From the IMG/VR virus record IMGVR_UViG_3300042564_004805, positions 1 through 64,000 of that record: a DNA stretch of 64,000 nucleotides. One strand, 5' to 3'. This stretch comes from a virus. Taxonomy: Duplodnaviria > Heunggongvirae > Uroviricota > Caudoviricetes. The notes below the pieces were generated by a model that was not told where the DNA came from, did no database searches, and saw only the letters and a program-made list of their open reading frames with translations. The position numbers and the translations under genes are program-made. Each line of letters begins with the position of its first letter. Position 1 is the stretch's first letter. This document shows positions 26,178 to 41,950 of the stretch, piece by piece.

Positions 26178-26291
26178 AGCAGAGTTTGTACAATTATGTG
26201 TGTACGTGTCAAAATTGACACTAAATACAATTGCGGTCCGCGAGCCTCTAACCTCTCCGACCGCTCTAAACGCTATGAAGGAGCATTCAGC

Positions 26292-28513: not shown

Positions 28514-28588
28514 AATAAGTGGCCTCCTTGCGTAGTGGCATATTCAGCATAATATACAACCAAAAACTCTTAAGTCACGTGGAAATTT

Positions 28589-28622
28589 GGGAAAAAATTT
28601 TTCCCGACGGTGTCAGGACACC
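28589..28622. promoter_or_regulatory. paired palindromes in the divergent control region (GGGAAAAAATTTTTCCC and GGTGTC-AG-GACACC)
   Basis: two adjacent inverted repeats in the 273-bp gap between the divergently oriented VWA gene and the fibre gene. Confidence 0.4.
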
Positions 28623-28786
28623 TTAAAAAGGTAGAGGCAAAACGGTAATCAACTACCTAGCTCCAAGACCATTCCGTAAATAGGGGTAGCCGAGTTTGAT
28701 CCAGCAGGGGAGAGCGAAGATGGTTCAGCCATTTTTGTTGTAGTGCAGGAAAGAACTCTGAAAACGAAAACAAGGTGTAATCCACT

Positions 28787-31700
28787 ATGGCGATAAAAAT
28801 TTGTGGGAATATAGTGATTCCCAATAGTACAGGATGCAATACGACTGCACTTAACACAGCCGTGGGTATCAATGCACTTTGTAATCTCAACACAGGTGTT
28901 AGCAATACAGCTTTTGGTGGTGGGGCTCTTCTGGCTGTCTCAACCGGCTCTCTGAACATGGGTCTAGGTGTCTATGCTGGTGGTAGCATCACAACAGGCT
29001 GTGCCAACACAGTGATTGGGCAGTTGGCTGGTACCCCAGGCCTCGTTGACACTGTGCTGATTGGTGCTGGCACAACTGAGAGATTGCGTGTTGACGCCAA
29101 TTGTCTAGTTGTCAACAATGGCACTGGTGATGTGTGTGCCCGCTGCTTCTTTGGTTGTGGTGCTGGTTTAACTGGCATTTCTGGCGGGGCAGTTTCAGCA
29201 GCAACTCCAATTCAATTGGGAACTGTGTATGGCCTCACAAGCAACAACTCCAACACTGCAATAGGATACTGTGCAGGCAGCACAACCAGCACAGGCACAG
29301 AAAATATTGCTATTGGTTGTTTGGCGCTCAGCAATAACACAACTGGCGTTCAAAACACTGCCGTGGGGGTAGACGCGCTCAAATCCAATACGATTGGGCA
29401 AGAAAATACTGCCCTTGGCAGCGACGCGTTGTTCTCAAACACAACTGGCAATTGGAACGTGGCTGTAGGGCGGTGTGCACTATATGCCAACACTGTGGGC
29501 CAAATGAATGTGGCTGTTGGGCGGAACAGTCTGTGCACTAATACCACTGGCAGCTTCAATGCCGCATTTGGTGAAGCCACCCTGTTGTGCAACACAACAG
29601 GCAGCTACAATACTGCACTGGGCACAAGCGCCTTGCGTTGCAATACCCAAGGCAACTTGAACATTGCTGTTGGCAACAACAGTTTGTTTAACAACACCAG
29701 TGGCAGTCGGAACATTGCTGTTGGTGACTGTGCCCTGTTCAATAGTGTGAGTGGATCAGACAACGTAGCTGTTGGCAGCAGTGCCCTGGGAGGACTCACT
29801 AACGGCTTATGGAACATCGCTGTGGGCTCAAATGCTTTGCGCTGCAACACCACAGGCTGCAACAATATTGCTTTGGGATTCTCCAGCATGTGCAGCAGCT
29901 CAGTTGGTTCAGACAATGCTGCATTTGGATCGTTTGCCCTCTCTGCCAACACAACAGGAACCTTGAATACAGCTATCGGCCACTACGCATCATGTGCCAA
30001 CACCATTGGAGCATGCAATATTGCTCTTGGCGCATGCTCACTAGCTGCAAACACATCGGGTGGTAGCAACGTTGCTGTTGGGCCATTTGCTTTGGCCAGC
30101 AATACAGTAGGAGTTCGTAACATTGCAATGGGCAGATGTGCTTTGGCCGCTAATACTGGCAACTGCAACATTGGCATTGGTGTTCTTTCGCTACTCAACA
30201 CAACTACTGGTGCATGTAATATAGCAATTGGCAACAGCAGTGGGGGTAATATCACAACCGGAACCAGCAATACTATTATAGGTAATTTATCAGGTTGTGC
30301 TGGCCTCACCGCCACTGTATTGATTGGCGCAGGGGCTACTGAACGTATCCGTGTTGACGCCAATTGTCTAGTTGTAAACAATGGCACTGGTGATGTGTGT
30401 GCTCGCTGCTTCTTTGGCTGTGGTGCTGGTTTAACTGGCATTAGCGGCGGAAGTGTGTCTGCTGCTACTCCCACAAGTTTGGGGACAGTTTATGCCAACA
30501 CTCCTGTTGGGTCGAATGTGCAGTTGGGATATAATGCTGGCAATACTACTGCTACTGGAGCAGATAACATTGCAGTTGGTTGTCTAGCTTTGGTCAACAA
30601 CGGTTTTGGATGTCAAAACTTGGCATTTGGCAGCAGCAGCATGTGTGCAAGCACAACTGGGCGCAGTAATATCGCAATAGGCATTGACACCATGATGTTA
30701 GGAGGCGGGCCGTGTGGTAACATTGGTGTTGGTAACGGGGCTCTTTGTTGCGTAAGTGGCACACAGGGAACAGCCAATGTGGCTCTGGGACATTTTGCCT
30801 TGAGAAGGACTACAACTGGTGGCTACAACACTGCGGTTGGTGAGCAAGTACTTCAAAACAATACAATAGGATGCCAAAACATAGGTTTTGGTGCCTTTGC
30901 ATTGGGGGCTAATACCTCAGGCTTTAACAACATTGGAATTGGGGCTTATGCTGTAGACGCCAATACCACAGGAGTGGAAAATGTTGGTATAGGCACTTGC
31001 AGCCTTACAGCTAACACAATAGGTTTGTGCAATACTGCGGTTGGCGGGAATAGTCTTAAGTCAAATACTATAGGCTGTTTCAATACAGCACTTGGATTCA
31101 TGGCCCTGAACTGCAACACAACTGGTAACAGCAACATTGGTATAGGCGTTTGTGCAGGTTTTTCAATAACAACTGGGTGCAGTAATACAGTAATTGGTAA
31201 CTTGGCTGGCACAGCTGATTGTGTGAACACAGTGTTGATAGGCGCTGGAACAAACGAAAGACTAAGAGTTGACGCAAACTGTTTGGTTGTCAACAACGGC
31301 ACAGGGGACGTGTGTGCAAGATGTTATTTTGGTTGCGGCGCTGCTTTAACAGGTGTTGCGGCTACTACTGCCAATTTGGACATCTATGCCAGCTATAAGG
31401 TTGGTAACGGCCTTACAGTCAGTACAGGAACAAACAACTTTGCTTTTGGCCAAGGTGCGCTTTGTTGTAACCGAAATGGTTGTAGCAATACAGCTATCGG
31501 TGCGAGTGCTCTACGATGCAATACAACTGGTAGCAATAACATTGCAGTTGGTTGTTTGGCACTCCAATTTAATACAAGTGGTAACAATAACATAGGCATG
31601 GGCTTTGATGCCCTTGGCACTAATTTTAATGGCAGTGACAACATTGCATTGGGGGCATGTGCTCTAAGGAACAATATTACCAATTCAAACATAGCAATTG

Positions 31701-34700
31701 GCGGCGCTGCCCTACAGCAGAATACCAGTGGCACATTTAACATAGCACTGGGTATTGGTGCGCTGACTGCAAACACCGCTGGAATATGTAACATAGCAAT
31801 TGGCCAACTCGCTGGAAGTCTGATCACAACTGGGTTCAACAACACAATAATTGGCAATTTGTCACCAGCAGCCGGCAGTGTATGTTGTGTGCTGATTGCT
31901 GCTGGCAGTTGTCAGCGACTGGCTATAGATGTGAATGGATTTGCTATAAACGGCAGCGGTGTGGGCTGTTGCGGATATGCGTGTTTGGACTGCACTAGCA
32001 GTTATAAAATAGGCACATTCAATACCAGCAGCACTGGGACATTTAACATGGCATTTGGCCAAGGTGCGCTTTGTTGTAACCGAAATGGTTGTAGCAATAC
32101 AGCTATCGGTGCGTCTGCTCTACGATGCAATACTAGCGGGTGTCACAATATTGCAGTTGGTTGTTTAGCACTCCAACTTAACCTAACTGGTAACAATAAC
32201 ATAGGCATGGGCTTTGATGCCCTTGGCACCCTTGGCACTACCTCTGGTGGCAGTGACAACATTGCATTGGGGGCATGTGCTCTAAGGAACAATCAGACCA
32301 ATTCAAACATAGCAATTGGCGGCGCTGCCCTACAGCAGAATTGCAGTGGCACATTTAACATAGCACTGGGTATTGGTGCGCTAGGTGCAAACACCGTTGG
32401 AACATGTAACATAGCAATTGGCCAACTCGCTGGAAGTCTGATCACAACTGGGTGCAACAACACAATAATTGGCAATTTGTCTGGCACTACGGGTTTGAAT
32501 AACACTGTATTGATTGGTGCTGGCAGTTGTGAACGACTGAAAGTAGACTCAAGTGGGCTTTATGTTAATGGGGCATCTATTGGTAGCTGTGGATATGCGT
32601 GTTTGGACGTCTATAGCAGTTATAAAATAGGCACATTTATGTCCAGCAGCACTGGGTTATATAACATGGCATTTGGCCTAGCTGCGCTTTGTCTTAATCT
32701 AAATGGTAGTAATAATACAGCTATCGGTGCGTCTGCTCTACGATGCAATACAACTGGTAGCAATAACATTGCAGTTGGTTGTCTGGCACTCCAATTTAAT
32801 ACAAGTGGTAACAATAACATAGGCATGGGCTTTGATGCCCTTGGCACCCTTGGCACTACCTCTGGTGGCAGTGACAACATTGCATTGGGGGCATGTGCTC
32901 TAAGGAACAATCAGACCAATTCAAACATAGCAATTGGCGGCGCTGCCCTACAGCAGAATTGCAGTGGCACATTTAACATAGCACTGGGTATTGGTGCGCT
33001 AGGTGCAAACACCGTTGGAACATGTAACATAGCAATTGGCCAACTCGCTGGAAGTCTGATCACAACTGGGTGCAACAACACAATAATTGGCAATTTGTCT
33101 GGCACTACGGGTTTGAATAACACTGTATTGATTGGTGCTGGCAGTTGTGAACGACTGAAAGTAGACTCAAGTGGGCTTTATGTTAATGGGGCATCTATTG
33201 GTAGCTGTGGATATGCGTCTTTGGACTGCACTAGCAGTTATAAAATAGGCACATTTATGTCCAGCAGCACTGGGTTATATAACATGGCATTTGGCCTAGG
33301 TGCGCTTTGTTGCAACCGTAATGGTAGTAGCAATACAGCTATCGGTGCGTCTGCTCTACGATGCAATACTGCTGGTAGCAATAACATTGCAGTTGGTTGT
33401 TTGGCACTCCAATTAAACCTAACTGGTAACAATAACATAGGCATGGGCTTTGATGCCCTTGGCATTAACCCTGGTGGCTGTGACAACATTGCATTGGGGG
33501 CATGTGCTCTAAGGAACAATCTTACCAATTCAAACATAGCAATTGGCGGCGCTGCCCTACAGCAGAATACCAATGGCACATTTAACATAGCACTGGGTAT
33601 TGGTGCGCTGACTGCCAACACCACTGGAACATGTAACATAGCAATTGGCCAAAACGCTGGCTCCCTAATAACCACTGGGTTCAACAACACGGTAATTGGC
33701 AATTTGTCTGGCACCGGGGGTTTGGTTTGCACTGTATTGATTGGTGCTGGCGCATGTGAACGACTGCGAGTAGACGGAACTGGGCTTTATGTTAATGGAG
33801 CATCTATTGGTAGCTGTGGATATGCATGTTTGGACTGCACTTCCAGTTATAAAATAGGCACATTTATGTCCAGCAGTGCTGGGACATTTAACATGGCATT
33901 TGGCCAAGGGGCGCTTTGTTGTAATTTAACTGGTTGTAGCAATACAGCTATCGGTGCGTCTGCTCTACGATGCAACCAGAACGGGTCTCATAATATTGCA
34001 ATTGGTTGTTTGGCACTTCAATTCAACACACTAGGTTGCAATAACATAGGCATGGGAGTTAATGCCCTAGGCACTAACTTGAATGGAAGTGACAACATAG
34101 CATTGGGGGCATTGGCCCTTTGCTCAAACACCACCGGTTGCAACATAGCAATTGGTTACTTTGCCCTATCGCAGAATACTACTGGGACTGGTAACATAGC
34201 ACTGGGTATTGGTGCGCTGACTGCCAACACCACTGGAACATGTAACATAGCAATTGGCCAAAACGCTGGAAGTCTGATCACAACTGGGTTCAACAACACG
34301 GTAATTGGCAATGTAACACCAGCAGCAGGCAGTGTATCTTGTGTGCTGATTGCTGCTGGCAGTTGTCTGCGACTGGCTATAGATGGGAATGGATTTGCTA
34401 TAAACGGCAACCCTGTGGGCTGTTGTGGATATGCGTGTTTGGACTGCACTAGCAGTTATAAAATAGGCACATCCAATACCAGCAGCACTGGGCTATTTAA
34501 CATGGCATTTGGCCTAGCTGCGCTTTGTTGCAACCGTAATGGTTGTAGCAATACAGCTATCGGTGCGTCTGCTCTACGATGCAATACTAGCGGGTGTCAC
34601 AACATTGCAGTTGGTTGTTTAGCACTCCAATTTAATACAAGTGGTAACAATAACATAGGCATGGGCTTTGATGCCCTTGGAATTAACCCTGGTGGCTGTG

Positions 34701-35923
34701 ACAACATTGCATTGGGGGCATGTGCTCTAAGGAACAATACCACCAATTCAAACATAGCAATTGGCGGCGCTGCCCTACAGCAGAATACTACTGGGACTGG
34801 TAACATAGCACTGGGTATTGGTGCGCTGACTGCCAACACCACTGGAACATGTAACATAGCAATTGGCCAAAACGCTGGAAGTCTGATCACAACTGGGTTC
34901 AACAACACGGTAATTGGCAATGTAACACCAGCAGCAGGCAGTGTATCTTGTGTGCTGATTGCTGCTGGCAGTTGTCTGCGACTGGCTATAGATGGGAATG
35001 GATTTGCTATAAACGGCAACCCTGTGGGCTGTTGTGGATATGCGTGTTTGGACTGCACTAGCAGTTATAAAATAGGCACATCCAATACCAGCAGCACTGG
35101 GCTATTTAACATGGCATTTGGCCTAGCTGCGCTTTGTTGCAACCAAAATGGTAGTAATAATACAGCTATCGGTGCTTGTGCTCTACGATGCAATACAACT
35201 GGTAGCAATAACATTGCAGTTGGTTGTTGGGCACTCCAATTTAATACAAGTGGTATCAATAATATAGGCCTGGGCTTTGATGCCCTTGGCACTAACTTTT
35301 GTGGCAGTGACAACATTGCATTGGGGGCATGTGCTCTAAGGAACAATACCACCAATTCAAACATAGCAATTGGCGGCGCTGCCCTACAGCAGAATACCAA
35401 TGGCACAAACAACACTGCAATAGGACGATCAGCAGGTACGAGCAACACAAATGGCAGTAACAACGTGTTTTTGGGATGCGGTGCAAGTGGAGCAACAGCA
35501 ACCAGCAACAACACAATAACTTTTGGTGATTCCAGCATTACTACACTGCGAGCTCAGGTAACTACTATTACTGCTTTGTCTGATGCTAGAGACAAAACTG
35601 ACATCGAAGATATTCCTTTGGGATTGCAGCTGATACGTGATCTACGTCCAGTAAAATTCACATGGAATACTAGAGATGGCAGCCGAGTAGGGGTCAAGAG
35701 CGCTGGATTTATTGCTCAAGAAGTACTGGAAGTCAGCAATCGATATAATCTACAAGACTGGCTGCATTTGGTGCTTGAGGACAACCCAGAGAAGCTTGAA
35801 GCCACAGTAGCTAACGTGTTCCCTGTGTTGATTCGAGCTGTGCAAGAGTTGGCTGAAAGCAACGATCAGCTCAATCAGCGTGTGACAGCTCTTGAACTTG
35901 CACTCACTGCCAAAGGTGTGTAG
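28787..35923 (+). CDS. giant tail fibre/adhesin (2378 aa): Hep_Hag-like N/G-rich beta-roll repeats plus C-terminal peptidase S74 intramolecular chaperone domain
   Basis: pervasive NTAIG..AL..NTTG..N.A.G repeats; C-terminus SDARDKTDIEDIPLGLQLIRDLRPVKFTWN...GFIAQEV matches the S74 Ser-Lys dyad autoproteolytic chaperone. Confidence 0.9.
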   Translation: MAIKICGNIVIPNSTGCNTTALNTAVGINALCNLNTGVSNTAFGGGALLAVSTGSLNMGLGVYAGGSITTGCANTVIGQLAGTPGLVDTVLIGAGTTERLRVDANCLVVNNGTGDVCARCFFGCGAGLTGISGGAVSAATPIQLGTVYGLTSNNSNTAIGYCAGSTTSTGTENIAIGCLALSNNTTGVQNTAVGVDALKSNTIGQENTALGSDALFSNTTGNWNVAVGRCALYANTVGQMNVAVGRNSLCTNTTGSFNAAFGEATLLCNTTGSYNTALGTSALRCNTQGNLNIAVGNNSLFNNTSGSRNIAVGDCALFNSVSGSDNVAVGSSALGGLTNGLWNIAVGSNALRCNTTGCNNIALGFSSMCSSSVGSDNAAFGSFALSANTTGTLNTAIGHYASCANTIGACNIALGACSLAANTSGGSNVAVGPFALASNTVGVRNIAMGRCALAANTGNCNIGIGVLSLLNTTTGACNIAIGNSSGGNITTGTSNTIIGNLSGCAGLTATVLIGAGATERIRVDANCLVVNNGTGDVCARCFFGCGAGLTGISGGSVSAATPTSLGTVYANTPVGSNVQLGYNAGNTTATGADNIAVGCLALVNNGFGCQNLAFGSSSMCASTTGRSNIAIGIDTMMLGGGPCGNIGVGNGALCCVSGTQGTANVALGHFALRRTTTGGYNTAVGEQVLQNNTIGCQNIGFGAFALGANTSGFNNIGIGAYAVDANTTGVENVGIGTCSLTANTIGLCNTAVGGNSLKSNTIGCFNTALGFMALNCNTTGNSNIGIGVCAGFSITTGCSNTVIGNLAGTADCVNTVLIGAGTNERLRVDANCLVVNNGTGDVCARCYFGCGAALTGVAATTANLDIYASYKVGNGLTVSTGTNNFAFGQGALCCNRNGCSNTAIGASALRCNTTGSNNIAVGCLALQFNTSGNNNIGMGFDALGTNFNGSDNIALGACALRNNITNSNIAIGGAALQQNTSGTFNIALGIGALTANTAGICNIAIGQLAGSLITTGFNNTIIGNLSPAAGSVCCVLIAAGSCQRLAIDVNGFAINGSGVGCCGYACLDCTSSYKIGTFNTSSTGTFNMAFGQGALCCNRNGCSNTAIGASALRCNTSGCHNIAVGCLALQLNLTGNNNIGMGFDALGTLGTTSGGSDNIALGACALRNNQTNSNIAIGGAALQQNCSGTFNIALGIGALGANTVGTCNIAIGQLAGSLITTGCNNTIIGNLSGTTGLNNTVLIGAGSCERLKVDSSGLYVNGASIGSCGYACLDVYSSYKIGTFMSSSTGLYNMAFGLAALCLNLNGSNNTAIGASALRCNTTGSNNIAVGCLALQFNTSGNNNIGMGFDALGTLGTTSGGSDNIALGACALRNNQTNSNIAIGGAALQQNCSGTFNIALGIGALGANTVGTCNIAIGQLAGSLITTGCNNTIIGNLSGTTGLNNTVLIGAGSCERLKVDSSGLYVNGASIGSCGYASLDCTSSYKIGTFMSSSTGLYNMAFGLGALCCNRNGSSNTAIGASALRCNTAGSNNIAVGCLALQLNLTGNNNIGMGFDALGINPGGCDNIALGACALRNNLTNSNIAIGGAALQQNTNGTFNIALGIGALTANTTGTCNIAIGQNAGSLITTGFNNTVIGNLSGTGGLVCTVLIGAGACERLRVDGTGLYVNGASIGSCGYACLDCTSSYKIGTFMSSSAGTFNMAFGQGALCCNLTGCSNTAIGASALRCNQNGSHNIAIGCLALQFNTLGCNNIGMGVNALGTNLNGSDNIALGALALCSNTTGCNIAIGYFALSQNTTGTGNIALGIGALTANTTGTCNIAIGQNAGSLITTGFNNTVIGNVTPAAGSVSCVLIAAGSCLRLAIDGNGFAINGNPVGCCGYACLDCTSSYKIGTSNTSSTGLFNMAFGLAALCCNRNGCSNTAIGASALRCNTSGCHNIAVGCLALQFNTSGNNNIGMGFDALGINPGGCDNIALGACALRNNTTNSNIAIGGAALQQNTTGTGNIALGIGALTANTTGTCNIAIGQNAGSLITTGFNNTVIGNVTPAAGSVSCVLIAAGSCLRLAIDGNGFAINGNPVGCCGYACLDCTSSYKIGTSNTSSTGLFNMAFGLAALCCNQNGSNNTAIGACALRCNTTGSNNIAVGCWALQFNTSGINNIGLGFDALGTNFCGSDNIALGACALRNNTTNSNIAIGGAALQQNTNGTNNTAIGRSAGTSNTNGSNNVFLGCGASGATATSNNTITFGDSSITTLRAQVTTITALSDARDKTDIEDIPLGLQLIRDLRPVKFTWNTRDGSRVGVKSAGFIAQEVLEVSNRYNLQDWLHLVLEDNPEKLEATVANVFPVLIRAVQELAESNDQLNQRVTALELALTAKGV
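31385..35530 (+). repeat. about seven in-frame tandem ~604-618-bp (~206-aa) near-identical modules inside the fibre gene
   Basis: module landmark ...CGYACLDCTSSYKIGT recurs at ~31992, 32610, 33228, 33846, 34450 and 35058; identical 70-aa antisense ORFs at 32293 and 32911 confirm the 618-bp period. Confidence 0.85.
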
Positions 35924-35934
35924 ACTTTAGGCTT

Positions 35935-36843
35935 ATGATCCCACGCGGTGGCACTGAACTCATGATGGCCAATCTCTCTCAACAACTGGGAGGTTGGCCA
36001 ACATCGTTGAATCTCATAGTAAGCAATTGCAGCTTACATCAAATAGATCCCAACAAAAAGAACGTTGTTTGGCAGCATCTCGACACCGACCAAGAGGCCA
36101 GTCAAGGTGCGGCTAATCCACAGTTTCAACAGGCTGTTGCTTGCTGGATATTTGTAAGTGAATGGCAACGTATAAAATGGATAAACTATTTTGGCATAGA
36201 TCCAAACAAAACAGTTGTGATCCGCAATGCCATACACTCTTTCAATTGGCAACTCAAACCCGCCTCTCAGCAAATTGAAATGATCTACACCAGCACTCCT
36301 TGGAGAGGACTTGATGTGTTGCTGGATGCTGTAGACCAACTGCAATATCAAAACTGGCGTCTCACAGTTTACAGCAGCACCATTATCTATGGCAAAGGTT
36401 TCAGTGACAGCACCATGAGAGGCTATCAGTCTTTGTTTGATCGCTGTCGCCAGCACACTCAAATCCAGTATGTTGGTTACGGGCTCAATCAAGCTGTGAG
36501 AAAGAGATTGCAAGGCAGTCACTTATGGGTATATCCCAGCACTTTCCCAGAAACCAGCTGCATCTCAGCAATAGAGGCTGCTAGTGCTGGGTGCCAGGTG
36601 GTCACCACTCGACTTGGTGCTCTTGAAGAAACCCTTGGCGAAAGTGCTTGTTTTGTAGACTATACTACCAACAAACGGGTATTGTCAGCAGCCTTTGCTA
36701 AATCTCTTGATAACCAATTGAGCAAATATGATTCAAATAACCCTCAATGGCAAAATCAAGCATTATTATTTGACAAACTCTACAGTTGGAACACTAGAAT
36801 ACACGAATGGCAAATTTTAATCAATCAACTCGTCGCAGAGTAA
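35935..36843 (+). CDS. glycosyltransferase (GT-B, group 1/GT4-like C-domain)
   Basis: RGLDVLLDAV...EAASAGCQVVTTRLGALEE resembles the Glycos_transf_1 C-terminus; starts 11 nt after the fibre stop. Confidence 0.55.
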   Translation: MIPRGGTELMMANLSQQLGGWPTSLNLIVSNCSLHQIDPNKKNVVWQHLDTDQEASQGAANPQFQQAVACWIFVSEWQRIKWINYFGIDPNKTVVIRNAIHSFNWQLKPASQQIEMIYTSTPWRGLDVLLDAVDQLQYQNWRLTVYSSTIIYGKGFSDSTMRGYQSLFDRCRQHTQIQYVGYGLNQAVRKRLQGSHLWVYPSTFPETSCISAIEAASAGCQVVTTRLGALEETLGESACFVDYTTNKRVLSAAFAKSLDNQLSKYDSNNPQWQNQALLFDKLYSWNTRIHEWQILINQLVAE

Positions 36844-37505
36844 TGATAGGCACCCCTAGCTATGATGGCAAGGTAGAGGTCAGCTACACTAGCAGTTTAT
36901 TTTATACTACTAAAGCTGCTGAAAAAAGAAACATTGAACTTTTACCCTTATGGGTCAGCTTCGATGCATTGATTCAAAGAGCTAGAAATGACACCTTGCA
37001 ATTAGCATATGAGATCGGTGTTGATGATCTCGTATGGATTGATCAAGATATTGAATGGACCCCGCAACAGTTTTTTAAACTACTGGATCATCCTGTAGAT
37101 GTTGTGGGTGGCACATATCCCAAAAAAGGGGATCGTCCAGAATATGTTGTAAGACAAATGACTAAACGCCCTATTGACCCGCAAACTGGTTTGATGGAAG
37201 TTGATGGCTTGGGCACAGGATTTGCACGCATGAGTCGACAAGCTATAAACCATTTGTGGAACACCAGTCAAGCCTATATTGATCCCAAAGACATGAAGCA
37301 ACGCCGAATGATCTGTGATGTGATAGTTACCAACACCGGTCTTATGAGTGAGGACATACGTATGTTTGAAAAACTTCAGGAAGGCGGATTTCCCATATAT
37401 CTTGACACCACAATCACTTGCAAGCACGGCGGCTATAAGCAATATCAGGGTGACTTCCTACAATGGTACACAGGGCTGGGACAGACAAAAGGCCGGCAAT
37501 TGTGA
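36807..37505 (+). CDS. putative glycosyltransferase (GT-A-like)
   Basis: weak GT2-like features (RRVMIGTPSYDG...VWIDQDIEW); embedded in the glycosyltransferase cluster. Confidence 0.4.
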   Translation: MANFNQSTRRRVMIGTPSYDGKVEVSYTSSLFYTTKAAEKRNIELLPLWVSFDALIQRARNDTLQLAYEIGVDDLVWIDQDIEWTPQQFFKLLDHPVDVVGGTYPKKGDRPEYVVRQMTKRPIDPQTGLMEVDGLGTGFARMSRQAINHLWNTSQAYIDPKDMKQRRMICDVIVTNTGLMSEDIRMFEKLQEGGFPIYLDTTITCKHGGYKQYQGDFLQWYTGLGQTKGRQL

Positions 37506-37573
37506 CTACCTACAAGTGTTGGTCAAGTTCTCAACAGCTTTTTAGTCTATTATAGGCAGATGAATCTTAAATT

Positions 37574-37603
37574 TTGGCAAAAATAGTCAATTTGCCTTAT
37601 AAT
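37574..37603 (+). promoter_or_regulatory. sigma70-like promoter (TTGGCA-18-TATAAT) internal to the plus-strand cluster
   Basis: ttggca at 37574-37579 and tataat at 37598-37603; AGGAA Shine-Dalgarno site before the ATG at 37628. Confidence 0.5.
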
Positions 37604-37627
37604 ATCTTGAAGCTTCGAGGAACTAGA

Positions 37628-38560
37628 ATGACAAAAAAGATATTTTGGATAGACGGTGGTGCTGGTAGAGTAATCACCGCTATTCCTGCATTAATCAAAT
37701 ACGGTCGATTGCATCCCAACAGCGAATGGGCTGTGTTGGTTGGGGCATGGGATTTCTTATACTGGGGTATTCCCGAGCTGCAAGATCGCACCTACAATCT
37801 TGATACAAAAGGTGTTTTTGACAACGTAGTCAAGAATGCTGATCAAATAGTAACCCCGGAGCCTTATCGTATCCCAGCATATTTTAGGCAAGAGATAAGT
37901 TTGGCTGAAGCTTTTGACAGGGAAATCAACCAAACTACAGATCACAGTGATTTATTGCCACCACGCTTGGCATTCAATCAACAAGAAACTCTAGTAGCCA
38001 AGAATACCATAGCTGATCTCAAAAGTGTGAGCAAAAAGAACAAAACTATTGTATTTCAACCCTTTGGCCGTGGTGCCAAACTGGATCGTGCCACAGTGAT
38101 TGACGAAGAAAGCAGAAGCTTAAGCTCAAACGACTATTTGAGCCTGAGCCGGCGTCTTAATCAAAAATACAACATGATCTTTTTTGGCGAGCCTGACTTT
38201 CAATTGAAAGACGACAACTGGAGTGCCAAATACACTGCTGATTTAAGAGTTTGGTCAGCTCTAGTTGCCAACTCTGACTATTTTGTAGGATGTGACAGTG
38301 TAGGCCAGCATATTGCTAGAGCCTCTGGAGTACCAGGCACAGTAATTATTGGGAGTACGTTTCCCAAGAACACCAGCTATCCAGATTACTTTCAAATAAT
38401 TGAAAAGCCTGCTGCTAGGAAATATAGTCCTATTCGTATTGCTGGTCTGGACGTAAATCTCAGCAATAGGCTGAATGAAGGCACAATGAAATTCTCAACC
38501 AAAGAACTAGACGACATCTATCAAAAGATTGTTGCAGATATTGAAAGGAAAACACGCTGA
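37628..38560 (+). CDS. glycosyltransferase family 9-like (heptosyltransferase-like)
   Basis: KKIFWIDGGAGRVITAIPALIKY N-terminus typical of GT9; start set at MTKKIF. Confidence 0.5.
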   Translation: MTKKIFWIDGGAGRVITAIPALIKYGRLHPNSEWAVLVGAWDFLYWGIPELQDRTYNLDTKGVFDNVVKNADQIVTPEPYRIPAYFRQEISLAEAFDREINQTTDHSDLLPPRLAFNQQETLVAKNTIADLKSVSKKNKTIVFQPFGRGAKLDRATVIDEESRSLSSNDYLSLSRRLNQKYNMIFFGEPDFQLKDDNWSAKYTADLRVWSALVANSDYFVGCDSVGQHIARASGVPGTVIIGSTFPKNTSYPDYFQIIEKPAARKYSPIRIAGLDVNLSNRLNEGTMKFSTKELDDIYQKIVADIERKTR

Positions 38561-40257
38561 TGAAAATAATGGCCATCAATCCCGGTCACAACAGCAGTGT
38601 GGCGCTTGTTGAAGACGGTAAGTTGCTGTTTTATAGCGAGGAAGAACGATGGAGTCGCCTAAAGTATGACGGTAATCCATTTAGAGCCATGCTATGGGTA
38701 CTAACTAATCATTTGGTAGACCACTTGATCATTGGTGGGACCACCACTAATTGGGTTACTCTTCCTTGGACTAACGAGAATGCCTATGCTGCATTAGCTC
38801 GCAAATTCAGTCCTAATGTGCAAGTTACCCTAATGGGCCATCTACATCACTTGGGTCATGCAGCTAATGCCTTCTATGGCAGTGGTTTTGAAACAGCATG
38901 CGCCTTGGTCGTAGATGGGGCCGGAAGCTATGTGCAAGAAAGCATGGGAGAAGGACTACCACTTACTGGGGGTTTTGAAACTGAAAGCATCTATCATTGC
39001 AGCTATCCACATGAGTTCAACGCAGTTTACAAAAGATACAGTGACGGTGCGGAAACCAGCCTCTACTACGACAACGGTATCCAAGAATTTGATAATAATG
39101 TTACTATTGTTAAGGCATACGAGAGTGTAAGTGATTATTTAGGATTTGGGGCTATTGAAGCTGGGAAGACCATGGGACTAGCTCCTTATGGCCAAGAAGA
39201 CAGCAACATTCCTGCCTTTTTCATCAACAATAAAGGCAACAAGAACTTGTTGATTCCTCGATATCCCACCGGCGCACACATTGACGAGAATAGATTTCCT
39301 TACTTGCGTAGATACACACAACCAAGTGACTGGCATAATAACTTTGAATTAGTGCGAGATCAAGACAAGAATCTAGCCTACCATGTGCAGAAAGAAACTG
39401 AAGAGCAGATGGTGAAGTTGATTGAGCGTGCTATTGACATTACTGGAGAAAATCGCATTGTAATCAGTGGTGGTTATGCACTCAACTGTGTTGCCAACTA
39501 CAAATATCTAGAACGTTTCCCTAATATTGAGTTTTACATTGATCCCATTGCACATGATGGTGGAACAGCCATTGGTTTAGCTCGGCATGCTTATTATGTT
39601 CTGAGCCAAGATACTACACCTCAACCACTCTCTCATCTCTACTTGAGTGTGTTGCCAGACTATAATCAGATTGAAACCACTATTGCTTCTGTTGAAGGTA
39701 TCAGCATGAGAGACACATCACCTGCTGAAGTGGCACTACTGCTGGCAGAAGGCAATATTGTGGCTTTGTTTCAAGGCGCTAGTGAAGGTGGGCCTCGTGC
39801 ACTAGGCAACAGAAGCATTCTTTTTGATCCTCGAGTAACCAACGGCAAGGATATTGTTAACCAAGTTAAAAATCGTGAATGGTTCCGCCCTTTTGCTGCG
39901 AGTGTGATGGCAGAACATGCAAATGACTGGTTTGACATGCGCAATCTCAATGAAAGCCCTTACATGATGTATGCTGTAAATGTGAAGGAAAGCCAAAGAG
40001 AGTTGATTCCTGCAGTTACACATGTGGATGGCACCTGCAGAGTACAAACTGTCACCAGCGAGCAAAACTTGCATTTGTATCAGCTGCTAGATGCTTTTCG
40101 GCAACAAACCGAAACACCGTTGCTGTTTAACACTAGTTTCAATCTAGCTGGGCAGCCATTGGTGGAAACACTGGTAGACGCCTTGATAACAATCTTCAAC
40201 TGTGATATCCACTACCTGTATCTTCCCGATCTGGGAATGTTAGTATGCAAACAGTAA
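38560..40257 (+). CDS. carbamoyltransferase (NodU/CmcH family)
   Basis: N-terminus MKIMAINPGHNSSVALVEDGKLLFYSEEERWSRLKYD matches Carbam_trans_N; length 565 aa fits. Confidence 0.8.
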   Translation: MKIMAINPGHNSSVALVEDGKLLFYSEEERWSRLKYDGNPFRAMLWVLTNHLVDHLIIGGTTTNWVTLPWTNENAYAALARKFSPNVQVTLMGHLHHLGHAANAFYGSGFETACALVVDGAGSYVQESMGEGLPLTGGFETESIYHCSYPHEFNAVYKRYSDGAETSLYYDNGIQEFDNNVTIVKAYESVSDYLGFGAIEAGKTMGLAPYGQEDSNIPAFFINNKGNKNLLIPRYPTGAHIDENRFPYLRRYTQPSDWHNNFELVRDQDKNLAYHVQKETEEQMVKLIERAIDITGENRIVISGGYALNCVANYKYLERFPNIEFYIDPIAHDGGTAIGLARHAYYVLSQDTTPQPLSHLYLSVLPDYNQIETTIASVEGISMRDTSPAEVALLLAEGNIVALFQGASEGGPRALGNRSILFDPRVTNGKDIVNQVKNREWFRPFAASVMAEHANDWFDMRNLNESPYMMYAVNVKESQRELIPAVTHVDGTCRVQTVTSEQNLHLYQLLDAFRQQTETPLLFNTSFNLAGQPLVETLVDALITIFNCDIHYLYLPDLGMLVCKQ

Positions 40258-40687
40258 ATTTAAAAGAGTTTCACTTGAGCAGTGCGTTACCTGGAGCAGG
40301 TAGCCCACTGCTCAACAGCATAATTAAACAAAATCCAAAGTTCTCTGCCACTATAAGTGATCCTTTGCATAGTTTTGTGCACATCCTTATAAGAGACATC
40401 AACAGCCCTGTTGGTGTGGTTGCACAAATAACTTGAGATCGACGCCGGCAAATACTCACAATGAGTTTGATATTGGATAGCATACAGTCCAAAAAAAGTG
40501 GTCGCTACTACCAATTCTCCAAGAGACTTGACGACTGTGTTGTAGGATCTGTAATTACCTTATGATTTTTTGGTAATGAAACAGCTTAGAATTACAAAAT
40601 ATCCTCTAGATTCACGCATATAGCAGATCTTTTAACAAAAGTATGCAACACTGGAAGTTTCATACACCTACAAGAAAGCAATTATAA

Positions 40688-41563
40688 ATGGCAGGCACCT
40701 TATATGGGATGATAACTGTTGCAAGCAGCAACCAATATACACATGTAGCCCTTACAAGTTTTTTCAAACACACAAAATTATCTGCAGAAGATAGGTTTGT
40801 GTTGATTGACAACGACGGAGAATGGACTAAAAACTGGCATTTGGACTGTTTTGATCCCAACCTAGTATATGTGAATTCAAACCCTCAGAATTTTAGCACA
40901 AATATCAATCAATTGCTGAGATGGGCTGATGAACAATATGCAGATTTAGTTTTCCTCAGCAATGATGTTGTTTTTACCCCCAAGTGGGCTACCCGTCTAG
41001 TGATAAATGACAGGACAGTGAGCATTCCCAGTTGTAATCAAACTCATTTTTATGGCTTTGACCCTACCTTAAATCTACAGCAATTTGGTGGTAGATTTCT
41101 ACATTTGAATGTAGCTGCTCACACACATGCTGCACGGTCACCAGCACCTTTTGAGCGCCTTCTCATGCCCACCTATGTATGTAGAATTCCACGTCTAATT
41201 TACCAAGAAGTTGGAGGCTTTGATGAAGCGTTCAACATGGGAGGTGAAGATGTGGACTATAGATTGCGCCTACTTCAAAAAGGCTTTGAAATCAAATATT
41301 GCAGCAGTTATTTGCTACACTTCAACGGTTGCAGTAGTTGGAACGGGGCGGAAACCTTAGCTGAAACTCAACTGCGTAACCGGTTGTATATGCAAACTTT
41401 TATTGAGAAATGGGGAGAAGATTTACACGACTTGTGTATGAGTTCAGGACAACCAACATCTATTATTGAAAAATATCAATTACACGGGTTACTTAACGAA
41501 TGCCGTTTCAACGACATAATAAAATCCTTGCTAACTGCACTAGAGTTCAATAAAGTTATATAA
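40688..41563 (+). CDS. glycosyltransferase family 2-like
   Basis: MITVASSNQY...FVLIDNDGEW...FLSNDVVFTP suggests a GT-A fold. Confidence 0.45.
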   Translation: MAGTLYGMITVASSNQYTHVALTSFFKHTKLSAEDRFVLIDNDGEWTKNWHLDCFDPNLVYVNSNPQNFSTNINQLLRWADEQYADLVFLSNDVVFTPKWATRLVINDRTVSIPSCNQTHFYGFDPTLNLQQFGGRFLHLNVAAHTHAARSPAPFERLLMPTYVCRIPRLIYQEVGGFDEAFNMGGEDVDYRLRLLQKGFEIKYCSSYLLHFNGCSSWNGAETLAETQLRNRLYMQTFIEKWGEDLHDLCMSSGQPTSIIEKYQLHGLLNECRFNDIIKSLLTALEFNKVI

Positions 41564-41566
41564 ATA
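41559..41566 (+). promoter_or_regulatory. T4-late-type promoter TATAAATA
   Basis: TATAAATA overlaps the upstream stop; 10 nt later AAGGAG, then the ATG at 41591. Confidence 0.5.
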
Positions 41567-41590
41567 TGTTATATCCAAGGAGAAAAAAAC

Positions 41591-41899
41591 ATGAGTGAGA
41601 CAGTGGGATCAATTATTGATCCACAAACAATAACTACTGAAATTGTTTTAAGTGAAAGAGTAGTAACAAATGAGTTTGTTATTGCTGAAATTTATGAAAG
41701 CATTGTGAACCGTTCTGTGCGGGCTGAGATTGAGCTTGGGCCATTTGTTACTGACACAAGACCAGATGGCAGCACGCAAACAAGAGGAAGCAGTCGTCGA
41801 GGGATTACAGTGTGGGACAATGATGCGTATGATGCTATAAGGGACACTTGGCGCAACGAAGATCTCATTACACGTATCAAGACCATTTTGAACGGATAA
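41591..41899 (+). CDS. hypothetical protein (late-type expression signals)
   Basis: 102-aa ORF with TATAAATA plus AAGGAG upstream and a strong terminator downstream. Confidence 0.55.
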   Translation: MSETVGSIIDPQTITTEIVLSERVVTNEFVIAEIYESIVNRSVRAEIELGPFVTDTRPDGSTQTRGSSRRGITVWDNDAYDAIRDTWRNEDLITRIKTILNG

Positions 41900-41920
41900 T
41901 TTAAGTTATGCAAAAACATG

Positions 41921-41950
41921 AAAACGGAGGGCATATTGTCCTCCGTTTTC
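41921..41950. terminator. bidirectional rho-independent terminator
   Basis: AAAACGGAGGgcatattgtCCTCCGTTTT: perfect 10-bp stem between convergent genes. Confidence 0.75.

What the first reader, a model, noticed from the sequence alone, without database searches (positions are those of the whole stretch)
28787..35923. 2378-aa fibre built from near-identical 618-bp in-frame tandem modules, with a self-cleaving S74 chaperone end and very high N-x-S/T sequon density
- **Protein layout:** an N-terminal region of Hep_Hag/YadA-head-like N/G/T-rich repeats is followed by about seven ~206-aa modules, then a peptidase S74 intramolecular-chaperone domain.
- **Modules:** each ends in a Cys-containing CGYACLDCTSSYKIGT segment.
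- **Neck segment:** TVLIGAG.ERLRVDANCLVVNNGTGDVCARCFFGCGAGLTG recurs three times, near nt 29050, 30320 and 31230.
- **Sequence identity:** the modules are nearly identical at nucleotide level with a 604-618-bp period, so copy number is probably recombinationally unstable and may be collapsed or expanded in assembly.
- **Sequons:** the protein is saturated with NxT/NxS (NTT, NTS, NNT and so on) and is immediately followed by glycosyltransferase genes.
- **Inference:** this makes it a candidate heavily glycosylated host-recognition fibre. That is inference only.
Basis: partly seen in the sequence, partly recalled or inferred. Interest (0 to 1): 0.75.

Follow-up and report, generated by a model that had tools for sequence, protein, structure and literature searches.

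The report
Giant phage fibre heading a sugar-enzyme operon
This is a real 2378-residue virion fibre gene of a large aquatic phage, an ordinary kind of self-cleaving fibre in itself. It always travels with a set of sugar-adding enzyme genes, which makes a sugar-coated fibre a testable idea.

Summary
The ORF (28787-35923, +, 2378 aa) is real. Its last 114 residues are a Peptidase_S74 intramolecular chaperone with the SDxRxK Ser/Lys motif (Ser2265).

Six complete 203/206-aa units (609/618 nt) and a truncated seventh form the distal array. They are 74-94% identical, not near-identical. The mosaic includes exact runs of 413 and 365 nt, which indicates gene conversion.

The sequon density (3.6 per 100 aa) is a by-product of the repeat consensus and typical of the family (2.99 ± 0.57). 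The unusual feature is 5.6% cysteine.

New context:
- The fibre is the first gene of a + strand block: GT4, GT-like, GT9/heptosyltransferase-like, carbamoyltransferase, GT2-like.
- The block is a 13.6-kb insertion between genes that are adjacent in relatives.
- The fibre-then-enzymes order recurs in 17 of about 20 distinct related phage arrangements.

Glycosylation of the fibre is therefore plausible (about 0.4) but untested. Module copy number cannot be verified.

The parts
28787..35923 (+). Fibre gene, 2378 codons plus stop.
   Evidence: The ORF and its translation are. PHROG families 23837, 4636 and 6002 ('virion structural protein', 'tail spike protein') match at E 1e-217 to 1e-282. More than 2000 homologues were found.
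28787..28825 (+). Conserved N-terminal motif MAIKICGNIVIPN, presumed to be the virion-attachment end.
   Evidence: The same M[AS]I[KR]I[CS]GN.I[IL]P[ND] start occurs in fibres of L016, L035, L037, L041, L052, L067, L094, L095 and L096. The attachment role is inferred.
28826..31387 (+). Three heads of 17-residue turns (aa 14-89, 136-510, 557-815). Each head is closed by a long Cys-rich connector (aa 90-135, 511-556, 816-867).
   Evidence: The repeat consensus N-[IT]-A-[IVL]-G-x-x-A-L-x-x-N-T-[TS]-G-x-x comes. These segments match L094 fibre B best, at 51-53%.
31388..35059 (+). Array of six tandem modules M1-M6 (starts at nt 31388, 31997, 32615, 33233, 33842, 34451). Each is one head of about nine turns plus a short connector, ending in CGYACLDCT.
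   Evidence: Pairwise nt identity is 74-94%, and the mosaic contains exact runs of 413 and 365 nt. dN/dS is 0.38-0.69. The same 203-aa periodicity occurs in L094 fibre A.
35060..35578 (+). Seventh, truncated module and the last head turns, leading up to the cleavage site.
   Evidence: Close relatives L004/L005 diverge from the window inside this segment, after nt 35466.
35579..35920 (+). Peptidase_S74 intramolecular chaperone domain. Ser2265 and Lys2270 lie in ..TTITAL|SDARDK... The 114 residues are predicted to be released.
   Evidence: Pfam match and motif. The profile of 11 C-termini hits solved chaperone domains: 8jov (4.6e-9), MYRF 7dc3, T5 pb1 6f45 and GA-1 3gud.
35935..36843 (+). GT-B glycosyltransferase (Glycos_transf_1 / GT4-like). 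It starts 11 nt after the fibre's stop codon.
   Evidence: Pfam E 2e-10, phrog_2170 and NCBIfam.
36807..37505 (+). 232-aa putative glycosyltransferase ('GTx'). It overlaps the previous gene by 37 nt.
   Evidence: phrog_1574 and phrog_34859 'glycosyltransferase'. It is conserved in the cassette. There is no Pfam or PDB match.
37628..38560 (+). GT9 (heptosyltransferase-family)-like glycosyltransferase. The ORF is open from 37574, and the likely start is Met19.
38560..40257 (+). NodU/NolO-type carbamoyltransferase.
   Evidence: Carbam_trans_C E 6.5e-60 and Carbam_trans_N E 4.7e-24. phrog_1601.
40688..41563 (+). Weak GT-A / GT2-like protein.
   Evidence: Pfam and NCBIfam hits lie below their cut-offs. 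It recurs in the cassette.
41921..41949 (+). Hairpin AAAACGGAGGG-CATATTG-TCCTCCGTTTT after the last + strand ORF (41591-41899). It is a likely operon terminator.
   Evidence: Read directly from the sequence. The consensus scan did not list it because its T tail has only four T.
28516..42104 (.). A 13.6-kb island, transcribed against the flanking genes. It lies between a DUF2201/VWA (cobT-like) gene and an AAA ATPase (cobS-like) gene.
   Evidence: In L008, L009 and L010 the two flanking genes are adjacent, with only an HNH-like ORF between them.

Best explanation
The ORF encodes a very long homotrimeric virion fibre of a large T4-related aquatic myovirus.

**Shown**
- The chain is a string of ten heads built from about 93-110 turns of 17 residues. 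The predicted fold matches YadA-like left-handed beta-roll heads best.
- The heads are joined by conserved 'VLIGAG-xx-ERLRVD-xx-G' connectors.
- The chain ends in a Peptidase_S74 intramolecular chaperone with the Ser/Lys motif.
- The distal two thirds are six and a half tandem copies of a 203/206-aa head-plus-connector unit.
- The unit mosaic (the best partner changes block by block, with exact runs of 413 and 365 nt) shows ongoing gene conversion.
- Close relatives differ at exactly this place: an alternative non-S74 tip, a decayed second fibre gene, and length variants.
- The gene is the first of a tightly packed + strand block (GT4-like, GT-like, GT9-like, carbamoyltransferase, GT2-like). 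The block forms a 13.6-kb island, and the fibre-then-enzymes order is conserved in many phages and in different genomic neighbourhoods.

**Inferred**
- The S74 domain drives trimer folding and then cuts itself off at Ser2265. This leaves a 2264-residue mature chain, roughly 50-80 nm long.
- The conserved MAIKICGN end anchors the fibre to the virion.
- The module array sets fibre length and surface, and it supplies homology for swapping distal ends.
- The many cysteines at variable repeat positions form disulfides outside the cell.
- The co-transcribed enzymes build a decorated (carbamoylated) glycan on the fibre in the cytoplasm, as TibC/Aah do for autotransporter adhesins. I rate this last step at about 0.4. 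It is the single most likely target, but it is not established.
For: **ORF, family and domains**
- ORF and families.
- Homologues are annotated as virion structural, tail fibre or tail spike proteins in cyanophages, pelagiphages and SPO1-like phages.
- S74 motif and matches to solved chaperone domains.

**Fold**
- The AF2 model has pLDDT 80-95 over the head.

**Repeats and variation**
- Repeat anatomy.
- Mosaic and exact runs.
- Locus variation in genomes 97-99% identical in the flanks.
- P0001 (2855 aa) and P0006 (2556 aa) sit in identical contexts but differ in length.
- Independent assemblies carry 2137- and 2182-aa MAIKICGN fibres with S74 ends directly before the same enzymes.

**Island and cassette**
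- Island boundaries.
- Cassette synteny:
  - 17 of about 20 distinct arrangements have a head-repeat and/or S74 ORF upstream on the same strand.
  - In the loci checked, that ORF's stop codon lies within 70 nt of the first enzyme gene.
  - None of the 20 has such an ORF in the 10 kb downstream.
- The cassette is also seen in L014-L016.
- The GT9 fold family includes the protein heptosyltransferase TibC.
- Cassette-linked fibres are Cys-rich: median 3.9%, against 0.12% for the family.
Against: - No glycan has been observed.
- The sequons are structural consensus positions.
- No GT41/HMW1C-type N-glycosyltransferase is in the cassette.
- Three arrangements carry the enzymes without a fibre within 10 kb: L040/L063, L055 and L057.
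- Cys-rich fibres also occur without the enzymes (L102).
- The same enzyme genes in cultured cyanophages were read as 'LPS genes' of unknown function (PMC3037559).
- The trimer state, the cleavage and the fibre's position on the virion are inferred from family membership.
- The AF2 model is a monomer built from a 29-row alignment.
Confidence: 0.6

Rival explanations
1. The fibre is as described but is not glycosylated. The downstream enzymes act on something else. Candidates are the host envelope (LPS or exopolysaccharide remodelling during infection), another virion protein, or phage DNA. Under this reading, adjacency to the fibre gene only reflects a shared late or accessory gene island.
For: - The homologous cluster in P-SSM2, S-SM2 and S-SSM7 was described as LPS biosynthesis genes of unknown function (PMC3037559).
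- The S-SSM7 record annotates heptose-pathway genes near its GT9-like gene.
- The nearest structural neighbours of the GT9-like protein are LPS heptosyltransferases.
- A few loci have the enzymes without a fibre.
- The window holds further sugar genes far from the fibre: GalE at 7973-9115, GT17 at 49977-50849 and GT4 at 58128-59120.
- Phage glycosyltransferases are known to modify DNA or host serotype (PMC12619734).
Against: - The fibre's stop codon abuts the first enzyme gene in 17 of about 20 arrangements, and no fibre lies downstream.
- The pair keeps together in at least three unrelated neighbourhoods:
  - between cobT- and cobS-like genes in the window;
  - next to T4-like gp13/gp15/sheath genes in L014;
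  - next to PAAR and heme-oxygenase genes in L016.
- Co-transcription with a structural gene would place expression late, which is a poor time to remodel host LPS. This point is inference.
Confidence: 0.4
2. The number and order of modules in the window is partly an assembly artefact. The true gene has more or fewer copies, or the join between the B-type N-terminal third and the A-type module array is chimeric.
For: - Exact repeats of 413 and 365 nt at offsets of 618 and 609 nt exceed common short-read lengths.
- Several related contigs start inside a fibre's repeat region, as expected when assemblies break at repeats: L004/L005, L012, and further cassette loci such as L022/L023, L036, L039, L047 and L049.
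- No independent assembly of this fibre was found in IMG/VR or in the JGI metagenome contigs; the best N-terminal match is 62%.
- The N-terminal third matches L094 fibre B best, while the modules match fibre A best.
Against: - The reading frame is intact over 7.1 kb.
- Every module is distinguishable from the others (74-94% identity).
- Independent contigs carry fibres of similar size and layout (2137 and 2182 aa).
- One relative has the same 203-aa periodicity with diverged copies.
- The differences in match strength between A and B are small: 51-56% against 43-46%.
Confidence: 0.25
3. The protein is not a host-recognition tail fibre. It could instead be another appendage (head or neck fibre, whisker) or an adhesin for non-host surfaces.
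For: - The gene lies outside any structural gene cluster in this window.
- There is no recognisable receptor-binding tip once the S74 domain is removed.
- Bacterial genomes (Limnobacter) carry homologues that some sources name trimeric autotransporter adhesin.
Against: - Close relatives swap the distal end for a typical fibre tip domain.
- In L014 and P-SSM2 the homologues sit among tail and tail-fibre genes.
- The PHROG and GenBank names are tail fibre or tail spike.
Confidence: 0.15

Closest known systems
Phage fibres and spikes with a C-terminal intramolecular chaperone (Peptidase_S74), such as K1F endosialidase, T5 pb1 (6f45), GA-1/phi29 gp12 (3gud) and the 8jov tail fibre
   Same: - It has a C-terminal S74 domain with the SDxRxK Ser/Lys motif, placed after a beta-helical trimeric body.
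- The C-terminal profile matches these solved domains.
   Different: - The body is a chain of YadA-like 17-residue beta-roll heads, not a triple beta-helix or a right-handed beta-helix enzyme.
- It is far longer (2264 aa mature).
- It is Cys-rich.
- It is followed by a sugar-enzyme operon.
YadA-like heads of trimeric autotransporter adhesins (YadA 1p9h, BpaC 7o23, UspA1 3pr7, BoaA 3s6l, EibD 2xqh)
   Same: - Heads alternate with short connectors.
- The presumed function is adhesion.
   Different: - No Pfam YadA_head hit.
- The turn has 17 residues, not 14.
- There is no coiled-coil stalk.
- No YadA membrane-anchor domain was reported by Pfam on the full protein.
- Trimerisation is presumably driven by a cleavable S74 domain.
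- It is a phage protein.
Cyanomyovirus 'virion structural protein / tail spike' families (phrog_4636, 23837, 6002; P-SSM2 PSSM2_298; S-CAM4 structural protein) and the 'LPS gene cluster' of P-SSM2, S-SM2 and S-SSM7
   Same: - The repeat family is the same.
- The GT9-like plus carbamoyltransferase pair is the same, at 36-39% identity.
- In P-SSM2 and S-SSM7 that pair lies a few kb downstream of tail-fibre genes.
   Different: - Identity to any cultured phage is below 45%.
- Here the fibre abuts the enzymes directly.
- It is twice as long and Cys-rich.
- The block is an island in a replication-gene region of a phage whose polymerase is closest (44%) to Atu_ph07/Rak2-like jumbo phages.
Adhesin plus dedicated cytoplasmic glycosyltransferase pairs: TibA/TibC, AIDA-I/Aah (heptosylation), HMW1/HMW1C (N-glycosylation at NxS/T)
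   Same: - A repetitive beta-helical adhesin is encoded next to a glycosyltransferase.
   Different: - No glycan is shown here.
- The enzyme is nearer to LPS-type GT9.
- No GT41 enzyme is present.
- Five enzymes, including a carbamoyltransferase, suggest an oligosaccharide rather than single sugars.
Virion glycosylation in mycobacteriophages, where capsid and tail-tube C-termini are glycosylated by phage-encoded enzymes (Freeman et al. 2023, as cited in PMC12619734)
   Same: Phage-encoded glycosyltransferases could act on virion proteins in the cytoplasm.
   Different: - The target here would be a fibre.
- The enzymes and the host group are different.
- The paper itself could not be read.

Membership tests
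Peptidase_S74 / intramolecular chaperone auto-processing domain | Match to PF13884 above the gathering score | tested here: met
   E 3e-11 and 43.9 bits against a cut-off of 22, at aa 2265-2316. On the C-terminal fragment the score is 47.6 bits.
Peptidase_S74 / intramolecular chaperone auto-processing domain | Catalytic Ser and Lys in an S-D-x-R-x-K motif at the start of the domain | tested here: met
   S2265-D-A-R-D-K2270. S, D, R and K are invariant in the alignment of 11 C-termini.
Peptidase_S74 / intramolecular chaperone auto-processing domain | Sequence relationship to solved chaperone domains, including the C-terminal helix | tested here: met
   Profile hits: 8jov 4.6e-9, 7dc3 2.2e-8, 6f45 2.7e-8, 3gud 1.9e-4. 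The best two alignments reach profile positions 133 and 137 of 139.
Peptidase_S74 / intramolecular chaperone auto-processing domain | Autoproteolytic release after trimer folding | not testable with these tools
   This needs protein chemistry, for example SDS-PAGE or MS of the wild type against S2265A.
Trimeric autotransporter adhesin, YadA-like head (Hep_Hag, PF05658) | Pfam YadA_head / Hep_Hag repeat match | tested here: not met
   No hit on the full protein at E<=0.01 or on five segments at E<=10. Only two distant homologues carry a precomputed PF05658 hit.
Trimeric autotransporter adhesin, YadA-like head (Hep_Hag, PF05658) | Left-handed parallel beta-roll fold | tested here: inconclusive
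   [not shown]
Trimeric autotransporter adhesin, YadA-like head (Hep_Hag, PF05658) | 14-residue repeat | tested here: not met
   The repeat spacing is 17 residues in 71 of 92 successive intervals and 16 in 8.
Trimeric autotransporter adhesin, YadA-like head (Hep_Hag, PF05658) | C-terminal YadA membrane anchor and secretion as an autotransporter | tested here: not met
   The C-terminus is an S74 domain. Pfam on the full protein reports no other domain. The genomic context is a phage.
Phage tail fibre / tail spike families (phrog_4636, phrog_23837, phrog_6002) | Profile match | tested here: met
   E 1.9e-263, 2.3e-282 and 7.2e-217.
Phage tail fibre / tail spike families (phrog_4636, phrog_23837, phrog_6002) | Presence in the virion, attached to the tail | not testable with these tools
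   Only homologues' annotations are available ('virion structural protein' in S-CAM4 and ACG-2014j).
Glycosylated adhesin with dedicated glycosyltransferase (TibA/TibC, AIDA/Aah, HMW1/HMW1C) | Glycosyltransferase gene adjacent to and co-oriented with the adhesin gene | tested here: met
   The gap to the GT4-like gene is 11 nt. The arrangement is conserved in 17 of about 20 cases.
Glycosylated adhesin with dedicated glycosyltransferase (TibA/TibC, AIDA/Aah, HMW1/HMW1C) | Enzyme of the autotransporter heptosyltransferase type (TibC/Aah) | tested here: inconclusive
   [not shown]
Glycosylated adhesin with dedicated glycosyltransferase (TibA/TibC, AIDA/Aah, HMW1/HMW1C) | HMW1C-type (GT41) enzyme acting on NxS/T | tested here: not met
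   No GT41 family hit in any of the cassette proteins. The rest of the phage genome was not seen.
Glycosylated adhesin with dedicated glycosyltransferase (TibA/TibC, AIDA/Aah, HMW1/HMW1C) | Glycan attached to the adhesin | not testable with these tools
   This needs glycoproteomics of virions or of co-expressed protein.

The most novel reading that the evidence does not exclude
A widespread group of large aquatic T4-related phages carries a mobile cassette. In it, a Cys-rich, YadA-like, S74-matured fibre is made together with its own glycan-building enzymes: GT4, GT-A-like, GT9/heptosyltransferase-like and carbamoyltransferase, plus sulfo- and methyltransferases in relatives. The virion fibre would then be coated with a decorated oligosaccharide. 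This would be a phage counterpart of autotransporter-adhesin glycosylation. It would also explain the long-unexplained 'LPS gene clusters' of cyanomyoviruses.
Probability: 0.35. Interest if true: 0.8.

Novelty: new variant of a known kind. Interest (0 to 1): 0.55.

Why it matters
- **Host range.** Fibres decide which host a phage can infect. This locus shows in one place how such fibres change:
  - tandem head modules are homogenised by gene conversion;
  - distal ends are swapped between near-identical genomes;
  - a whole fibre-plus-enzymes island is inserted between two genes that are otherwise adjacent.
- **The sugar genes.** The conserved linkage gives the sugar genes of large marine phages a concrete candidate substrate that can be tested. 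They have been called 'LPS genes' since 2010 without a known role.
- **If the fibre is glycosylated.** It would extend virion glycosylation from mycobacteriophage capsids and tail tubes to the receptor-binding apparatus of abundant aquatic phages. That would bear on adsorption, camouflage and particle stability.
- **If it is not.** The fibre is still a useful example of a large, poorly described subfamily.

Tried and rejected
**Searches that found nothing**
- Megablast of 35300-42000 against phage records gave no match.
- phmmer of the full protein, the C-terminal 151 aa and a head segment against PDB gave nothing. A profile of C-termini was needed.
- Pfam at E<=10 on segments gave no YadA_head or any other repeat family.
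- PDB sequence searches for the GT4-like, GTx and GT9-like proteins gave nothing useful.
- No independent assembly of this fibre was found in IMG/VR or in the JGI metagenome contigs.

**Signals and boundaries**
- The T4 late-promoter motif TATAAATA is absent upstream of the fibre.
- The sigma-70 and terminator scans were at chance level.
- No flanking direct repeats mark the island; the longest shared word is a 10-mer.

**Ideas tested and weakened**
- Cys-richness as a strict marker of the cassette is rejected. L102 has Cys-rich tandem S74 fibres without the enzymes.
- A B/A chimera origin of the gene is only weakly supported.
- Diversifying selection on the modules is not supported; dN/dS is 0.38-0.69.

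- Four literature searches found no paper linking these fibres to glycosylation.
- Freeman et al. 2023 is not held.
Full report
**1. The observation**

The window holds one uninterrupted ORF at 28787..35923 on the + strand, 2378 codons long.

Composition is extreme:
- Gly 15.5%
- Asn 12.8%
- Ala 12.2%
- Thr 10.5%
- Cys 5.6%

*Repeat period.* repeat finder recovers seven copies in register, with start-to-start spacings of 609 or 618 nt. TRF missed them because its period limit is 500.

*Modules.* At protein level there are six complete units, starting at aa 868, 1071, 1277, 1483, 1686 and 1889. Their lengths are 203, 206, 206, 203, 203 and 203 aa. A seventh unit (aa 2092) keeps about 125 homologous residues and then leads into the C-terminal domain.

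A shorter version (VLI[GA]AG-xx-[EQL]RL-x-[VI]D) closes every module.

*Identity.* The copies are not near-identical. Pairwise identity is 74-94% (nt) and 69-91% (aa). The pattern is a mosaic:
- In 20-codon blocks the closest partner of each module keeps changing.
- Exact runs of 413 nt (32188/32806) and 365 nt (34171/34780) link M2 with M3 and M5 with M6; the 365-nt run continues about 85 nt across the module boundary into the starts of M6 and M7.

This is the signature of gene conversion among tandem copies.

*Selection.* dN/dS between modules is 0.38-0.69, which indicates relaxed purifying rather than diversifying selection.

**2. What the protein is**

*S74 end.*
- Pfam finds only Peptidase_S74, at aa 2265-2316 (E 3e-11, above the gathering score).
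- The domain begins with S2265-D-A-R-D-K2270 in the context ..TTITAL|SDARDK...
- S, D, R and K are invariant in an alignment with ten other C-termini.
- The profile of that alignment hits solved intramolecular chaperone domains:
  - tail fibre 8jov, E 4.6e-9
  - MYRF 7dc3, E 2.2e-8
  - T5 pb1 6f45, E 2.7e-8
  - GA-1 appendage 3gud, E 1.9e-4
- By family knowledge, the domain assists trimer folding and then cuts itself off. That would leave a 2264-residue mature chain and a 114-residue fragment. This step is inferred.

*The body.*
- It is built of 17-residue turns with the consensus N-[IT]-A-[IVL]-G-x-x-A-L-x-x-N-T-[TS]-G-x-x. Of 92 successive spacings, 71 are exactly 17 residues.
- Pfam gives no YadA_head/Hep_Hag hit, even at E<=10 on five segments.
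- An AlphaFold model of aa 1440-1700 has one short strand per turn, with pLDDT 80-95 over the head (29-row alignment).
  - Sequence identity to these is 19-29%.
The protein is not a member of the autotransporter family:
  - no Pfam match;
  - 17- rather than 14-residue turns;
  - an S74 domain, not a membrane anchor, at the C-terminus.

*Family.*
- PHROG families 23837, 4636 and 6002 ('virion structural protein', 'tail spike protein') match at E 1e-217 to 1e-282.
- tblastn finds relatives at 30-40% identity annotated as tail fibre, tail spike or virion structural proteins. These occur in pelagiphages, Methylophilales phage Venkman, roseophages, P-SSM2, S-CAM4 and SPO1-like phages.
- The protein database holds more than 2000 homologues, many of 1400-4000 aa with S74 ends. 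None is above 46% identity in its best local alignment.

**3. Sequons and cysteines**

*Sequons.*
- There are 86 NxS/T sequons, against 54 ± 6 in shuffles.
- Thirty-one of the sequon Asn sit at position 12 of the repeat consensus (N-T-[TS]-G).
- The density (3.62 per 100 aa) is ordinary for the family: 2.99 ± 0.57, and 12% of 120 homologues are denser.
- Sequon density is therefore a by-product of the structural repeat and says little about glycosylation.

*Cysteines.*
- What stands out is cysteine, at 5.63%. Other ORFs of the window average 1.3%. The 120 best homologues have a median of 0.12% and a maximum of 4.04%.
- The Cys residues fall at the variable positions 6, 7, 10, 11, 16 and 17 of the turn.

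**4. Genomic context**

*The phage.*
- The surrounding genes are phage replication and nucleotide-metabolism genes: two RNA ligases, a family B polymerase fragment, a 5'-3' exonuclease and homing endonucleases.
- The polymerase is closest, at about 44%, to Atu_ph07 and Rak2-like jumbo phages.

*The operon.* The fibre gene opens a run of + strand genes among − strand genes:
- a GT4-like glycosyltransferase, 11 nt after the fibre's stop codon (35935-36843);
- a 232-aa GT-like protein overlapping it (36807-37505);
- a GT9-like protein (37628-38560);
- a NodU/NolO-type carbamoyltransferase (38560-40257);
- a weak GT2-like protein (40688-41563);
- a small ORF (41591-41899).

A terminator-like hairpin follows at 41921-41949.

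*The GT9 assignment* rests on two lines of evidence:
- Homologues carry PF01075 and the JGI name 'ADP-heptose:LPS heptosyltransferase'.

*The island.* In three related contigs (L008-L010) the DUF2201/VWA gene (27251-28513) and the AAA ATPase gene (42160-43374) are neighbours, with only an HNH-like ORF between them. The 13.6 kb from 28516 to 42104 is therefore an inserted island.

**5. The locus varies between close relatives**

Four IMG/VR contigs are 97-99% identical to window 35858-46628, yet they differ upstream. The details below were read in L004; L005 gives the same matches at its 5' end.
- The contig begins inside an M7-like head (95.7% to 35281-35466).
- The fibre then ends in a non-S74 tip of about 110 aa.
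- Three other genes follow.
- Just before the GT4 gene lies a 92-codon remnant. It keeps the first 12 and last 22 codons of a MAIKICGN/S74 fibre, with frameshifted head turns in between.

Other relatives add to the picture:
- L012 (82% nt identity) has the S74 end and the same enzymes, and it too begins in the last head.
- P0001 (2855 aa) and P0006 (2556 aa) lie in identical contexts. They are 95% identical over about 2400 aa and then differ in length.
- L094 and L095 carry two giant fibres in tandem. The second (2137 and 2182 aa) starts MAIKICGN, ends in S74 and abuts GT4-GTx; in L094 the whole order GT4-GTx-GT9-carbamoyltransferase-GT2-like follows.
- L094's first fibre has the same 203-aa periodicity with more diverged copies.
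- The window's N-terminal third matches L094 fibre B slightly better, and its modules match fibre A better. This hints at a recombinant origin, but the margins are small.

They also show that a fibre of this size is not an assembly fiction.

The exact copy number in the window cannot be verified:
- Several related short contigs begin inside a fibre's repeat region.
- No independent assembly of this fibre was found.

**6. The fibre-enzyme cassette**

Sixty-four IMG/VR loci encode a relative of the GT9-like protein. I translated all ORFs in them and scored them with HMMs of the module and of the S74 end, and with the window's enzymes.

Among about 20 distinct arrangements with at least 7 kb upstream and at least 59% GT9 identity:
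- Seventeen have a head-repeat and/or S74 ORF upstream on the same strand.
- In the loci I checked, that ORF's stop codon lies within 70 nt of the first enzyme gene.
- None has such an ORF in the 10 kb downstream.
- Two orders occur:
  - fibre, GT4, GTx, (GT2-like), GT9, carbamoyltransferase;
  - fibre, GT9, carbamoyltransferase, ..., GTx, GT4.
- The exceptions are L040/L063, L055 and L057.
- More distant GT9 relatives (48% identity or less) show no linkage.

The pair appears in unrelated neighbourhoods:
- between cobT- and cobS-like genes in the window;
- beside T4-like gp13/gp15/sheath genes in the 343-374-kb contigs L014/L015;
- beside PAAR and heme-oxygenase genes in L016.

Relatives add sulfotransferases and a methyltransferase to the cluster.

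Cassette-linked head fibres are Cys-rich: median 3.9%, n = 26. Cys-rich fibres also exist without the enzymes, as in L102.

In cultured cyanophages:
- The GT9-like and carbamoyltransferase pair lies a few kb downstream of tail-fibre genes in P-SSM2 and S-SSM7.
- The S-SSM7 record annotates ADP-heptose pathway genes close by.
- These clusters were described in 2010 as LPS genes of unknown function (PMC3037559).
- Four full-text searches found no paper that links them to fibres or to fibre glycosylation.

**7. How it most likely works**

*Shown:*
- the domain order;
- the repeat anatomy and the mosaic;
- the S74 motif;
- the operon-like packing;
- the island;
- the conserved synteny.

*Inferred from family knowledge:*
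- Three chains fold from the C-terminal chaperone, which then autocleaves.
- The conserved N-terminus attaches to the virion.
- About 93-110 turns at roughly 0.48 nm each, plus nine connectors, give a rod of roughly 50-80 nm.

*Inferred from context, at about 0.4:* the co-encoded enzymes decorate the fibre in the cytoplasm before assembly. The analogues are TibC/Aah on autotransporter adhesins and the phage enzymes that glycosylate mycobacteriophage capsid and tail-tube proteins (cited in PMC12619734).

*The main rival, also at about 0.4:* the enzymes act on the host envelope, on another virion protein or on DNA. The fold of the GT9-like protein cannot decide between these. It is nearer to LPS heptosyltransferases, but TibC is in the same fold family. 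No GT41-type N-glycosyltransferase is in the cassette.

**8. Verdict**

- The fibre is a new, very long, Cys-rich variant of the well-known class of S74-matured phage fibres. It has YadA-like heads.
- The added value of this analysis is the conserved, mobile fibre-plus-sugar-enzyme cassette. It turns 'glycosylated fibre' from a guess based on sequons into a hypothesis based on synteny that can be tested by mass spectrometry.
- Interest is moderate (0.55). It would be high if the glycan is found on the fibre.

Noticed in passing
L004:1-2870 (IMG/VR 3300044952_000782); also L003, L005, L006: In phages 97-99% identical to window 35858-46628, the fibre ends in a non-S74 tip domain of about 110 aa. 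It is followed by a 342-aa protein made of repeats of about 40 aa (..SPYV.VYPWS.SGFGTKY.NPATLP..) and two small ORFs. A 92-codon remnant of a MAIKICGN/S74 fibre then sits just before the GT4 gene.
   Followed up: partly
L001:10001-25173 and L002:10001-24276: The best homologues (P0001 and P0006, Cys-poor) are followed by a 450-aa GT2-family protein, a radical SAM protein and a YcaO protein. This is a different set of possible modification enzymes next to a fibre gene. The two fibres differ by 299 aa in otherwise identical contexts.
   Followed up: partly
window 28787-35923, and cassette-linked fibres in L015, L021, L035, L036, L039, L049, L094, L095: Cysteine makes up 5.6% of the fibre (133 residues), placed at the variable positions of the 17-residue turn. 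This compares with a 0.12% median in the wider family and 1.3% in the window's other ORFs. The reason is unknown; disulfide stapling or another modification are possibilities.
   Followed up: partly
window 7973-9115 (-), in the GC-rich stretch 8001-10000: A GalE (UDP-glucose 4-epimerase) gene scores 387 bits against a cut-off of 262. It sits in a 2-kb stretch of 62.5% GC, in a window that is mostly 40-55% GC. This looks like a recent acquisition.
   Followed up: partly
window 49977-50849 (-) and 58128-59120 (-): There are further glycosyltransferases far from the fibre: a Glyco_transf_17 family protein (E 3e-27) and a second GT4 enzyme. A methyltransferase lies at 52415-52996, and a radical-SAM-like ORF at 48432-49313.
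   Followed up: no
window 26196-27227 (+), repeat at 27081-27196: A NUMOD3/HNH-type homing endonuclease gene lies just outside the island. It contains a 51-nt tandem repeat (2.3 copies, 78% matches).
   Followed up: no
window 1841-3058 (-) and 9784-10995 (-): There are two RNA ligase genes: one T4 Rnl1-like and one of the RNA_ligase/PHA02142 type. At 4431-5213 lies an HNH protein whose HNH domain resembles that of IscB/Cas9 (E 1.4e-11). At 6079-6999 lies an HflK/HflC-like band-7 protein.
   Followed up: no
window 62540-63991 (-): The family B DNA polymerase ORF covers only part of the Pfam model (positions 97-343 of 453). Its best hits (Atu_ph07) are annotated as two polymerase genes. The polymerase may be split, but the window ends at 64000.
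   Followed up: no
L103 (Synechococcus phage S-SSM7, 91344-114240): The record annotates ADP-heptose pathway genes a few kb downstream of the GT9-like and carbamoyltransferase pair and of a 1477-aa tail fibre gene. These are a heptose 7-phosphate kinase/adenylyltransferase, a phosphoheptose isomerase and a nucleotide-sugar epimerase. This fits a real heptosyltransferase activity. No heptose pathway gene was identified among the window ORFs scanned.
   Followed up: partly
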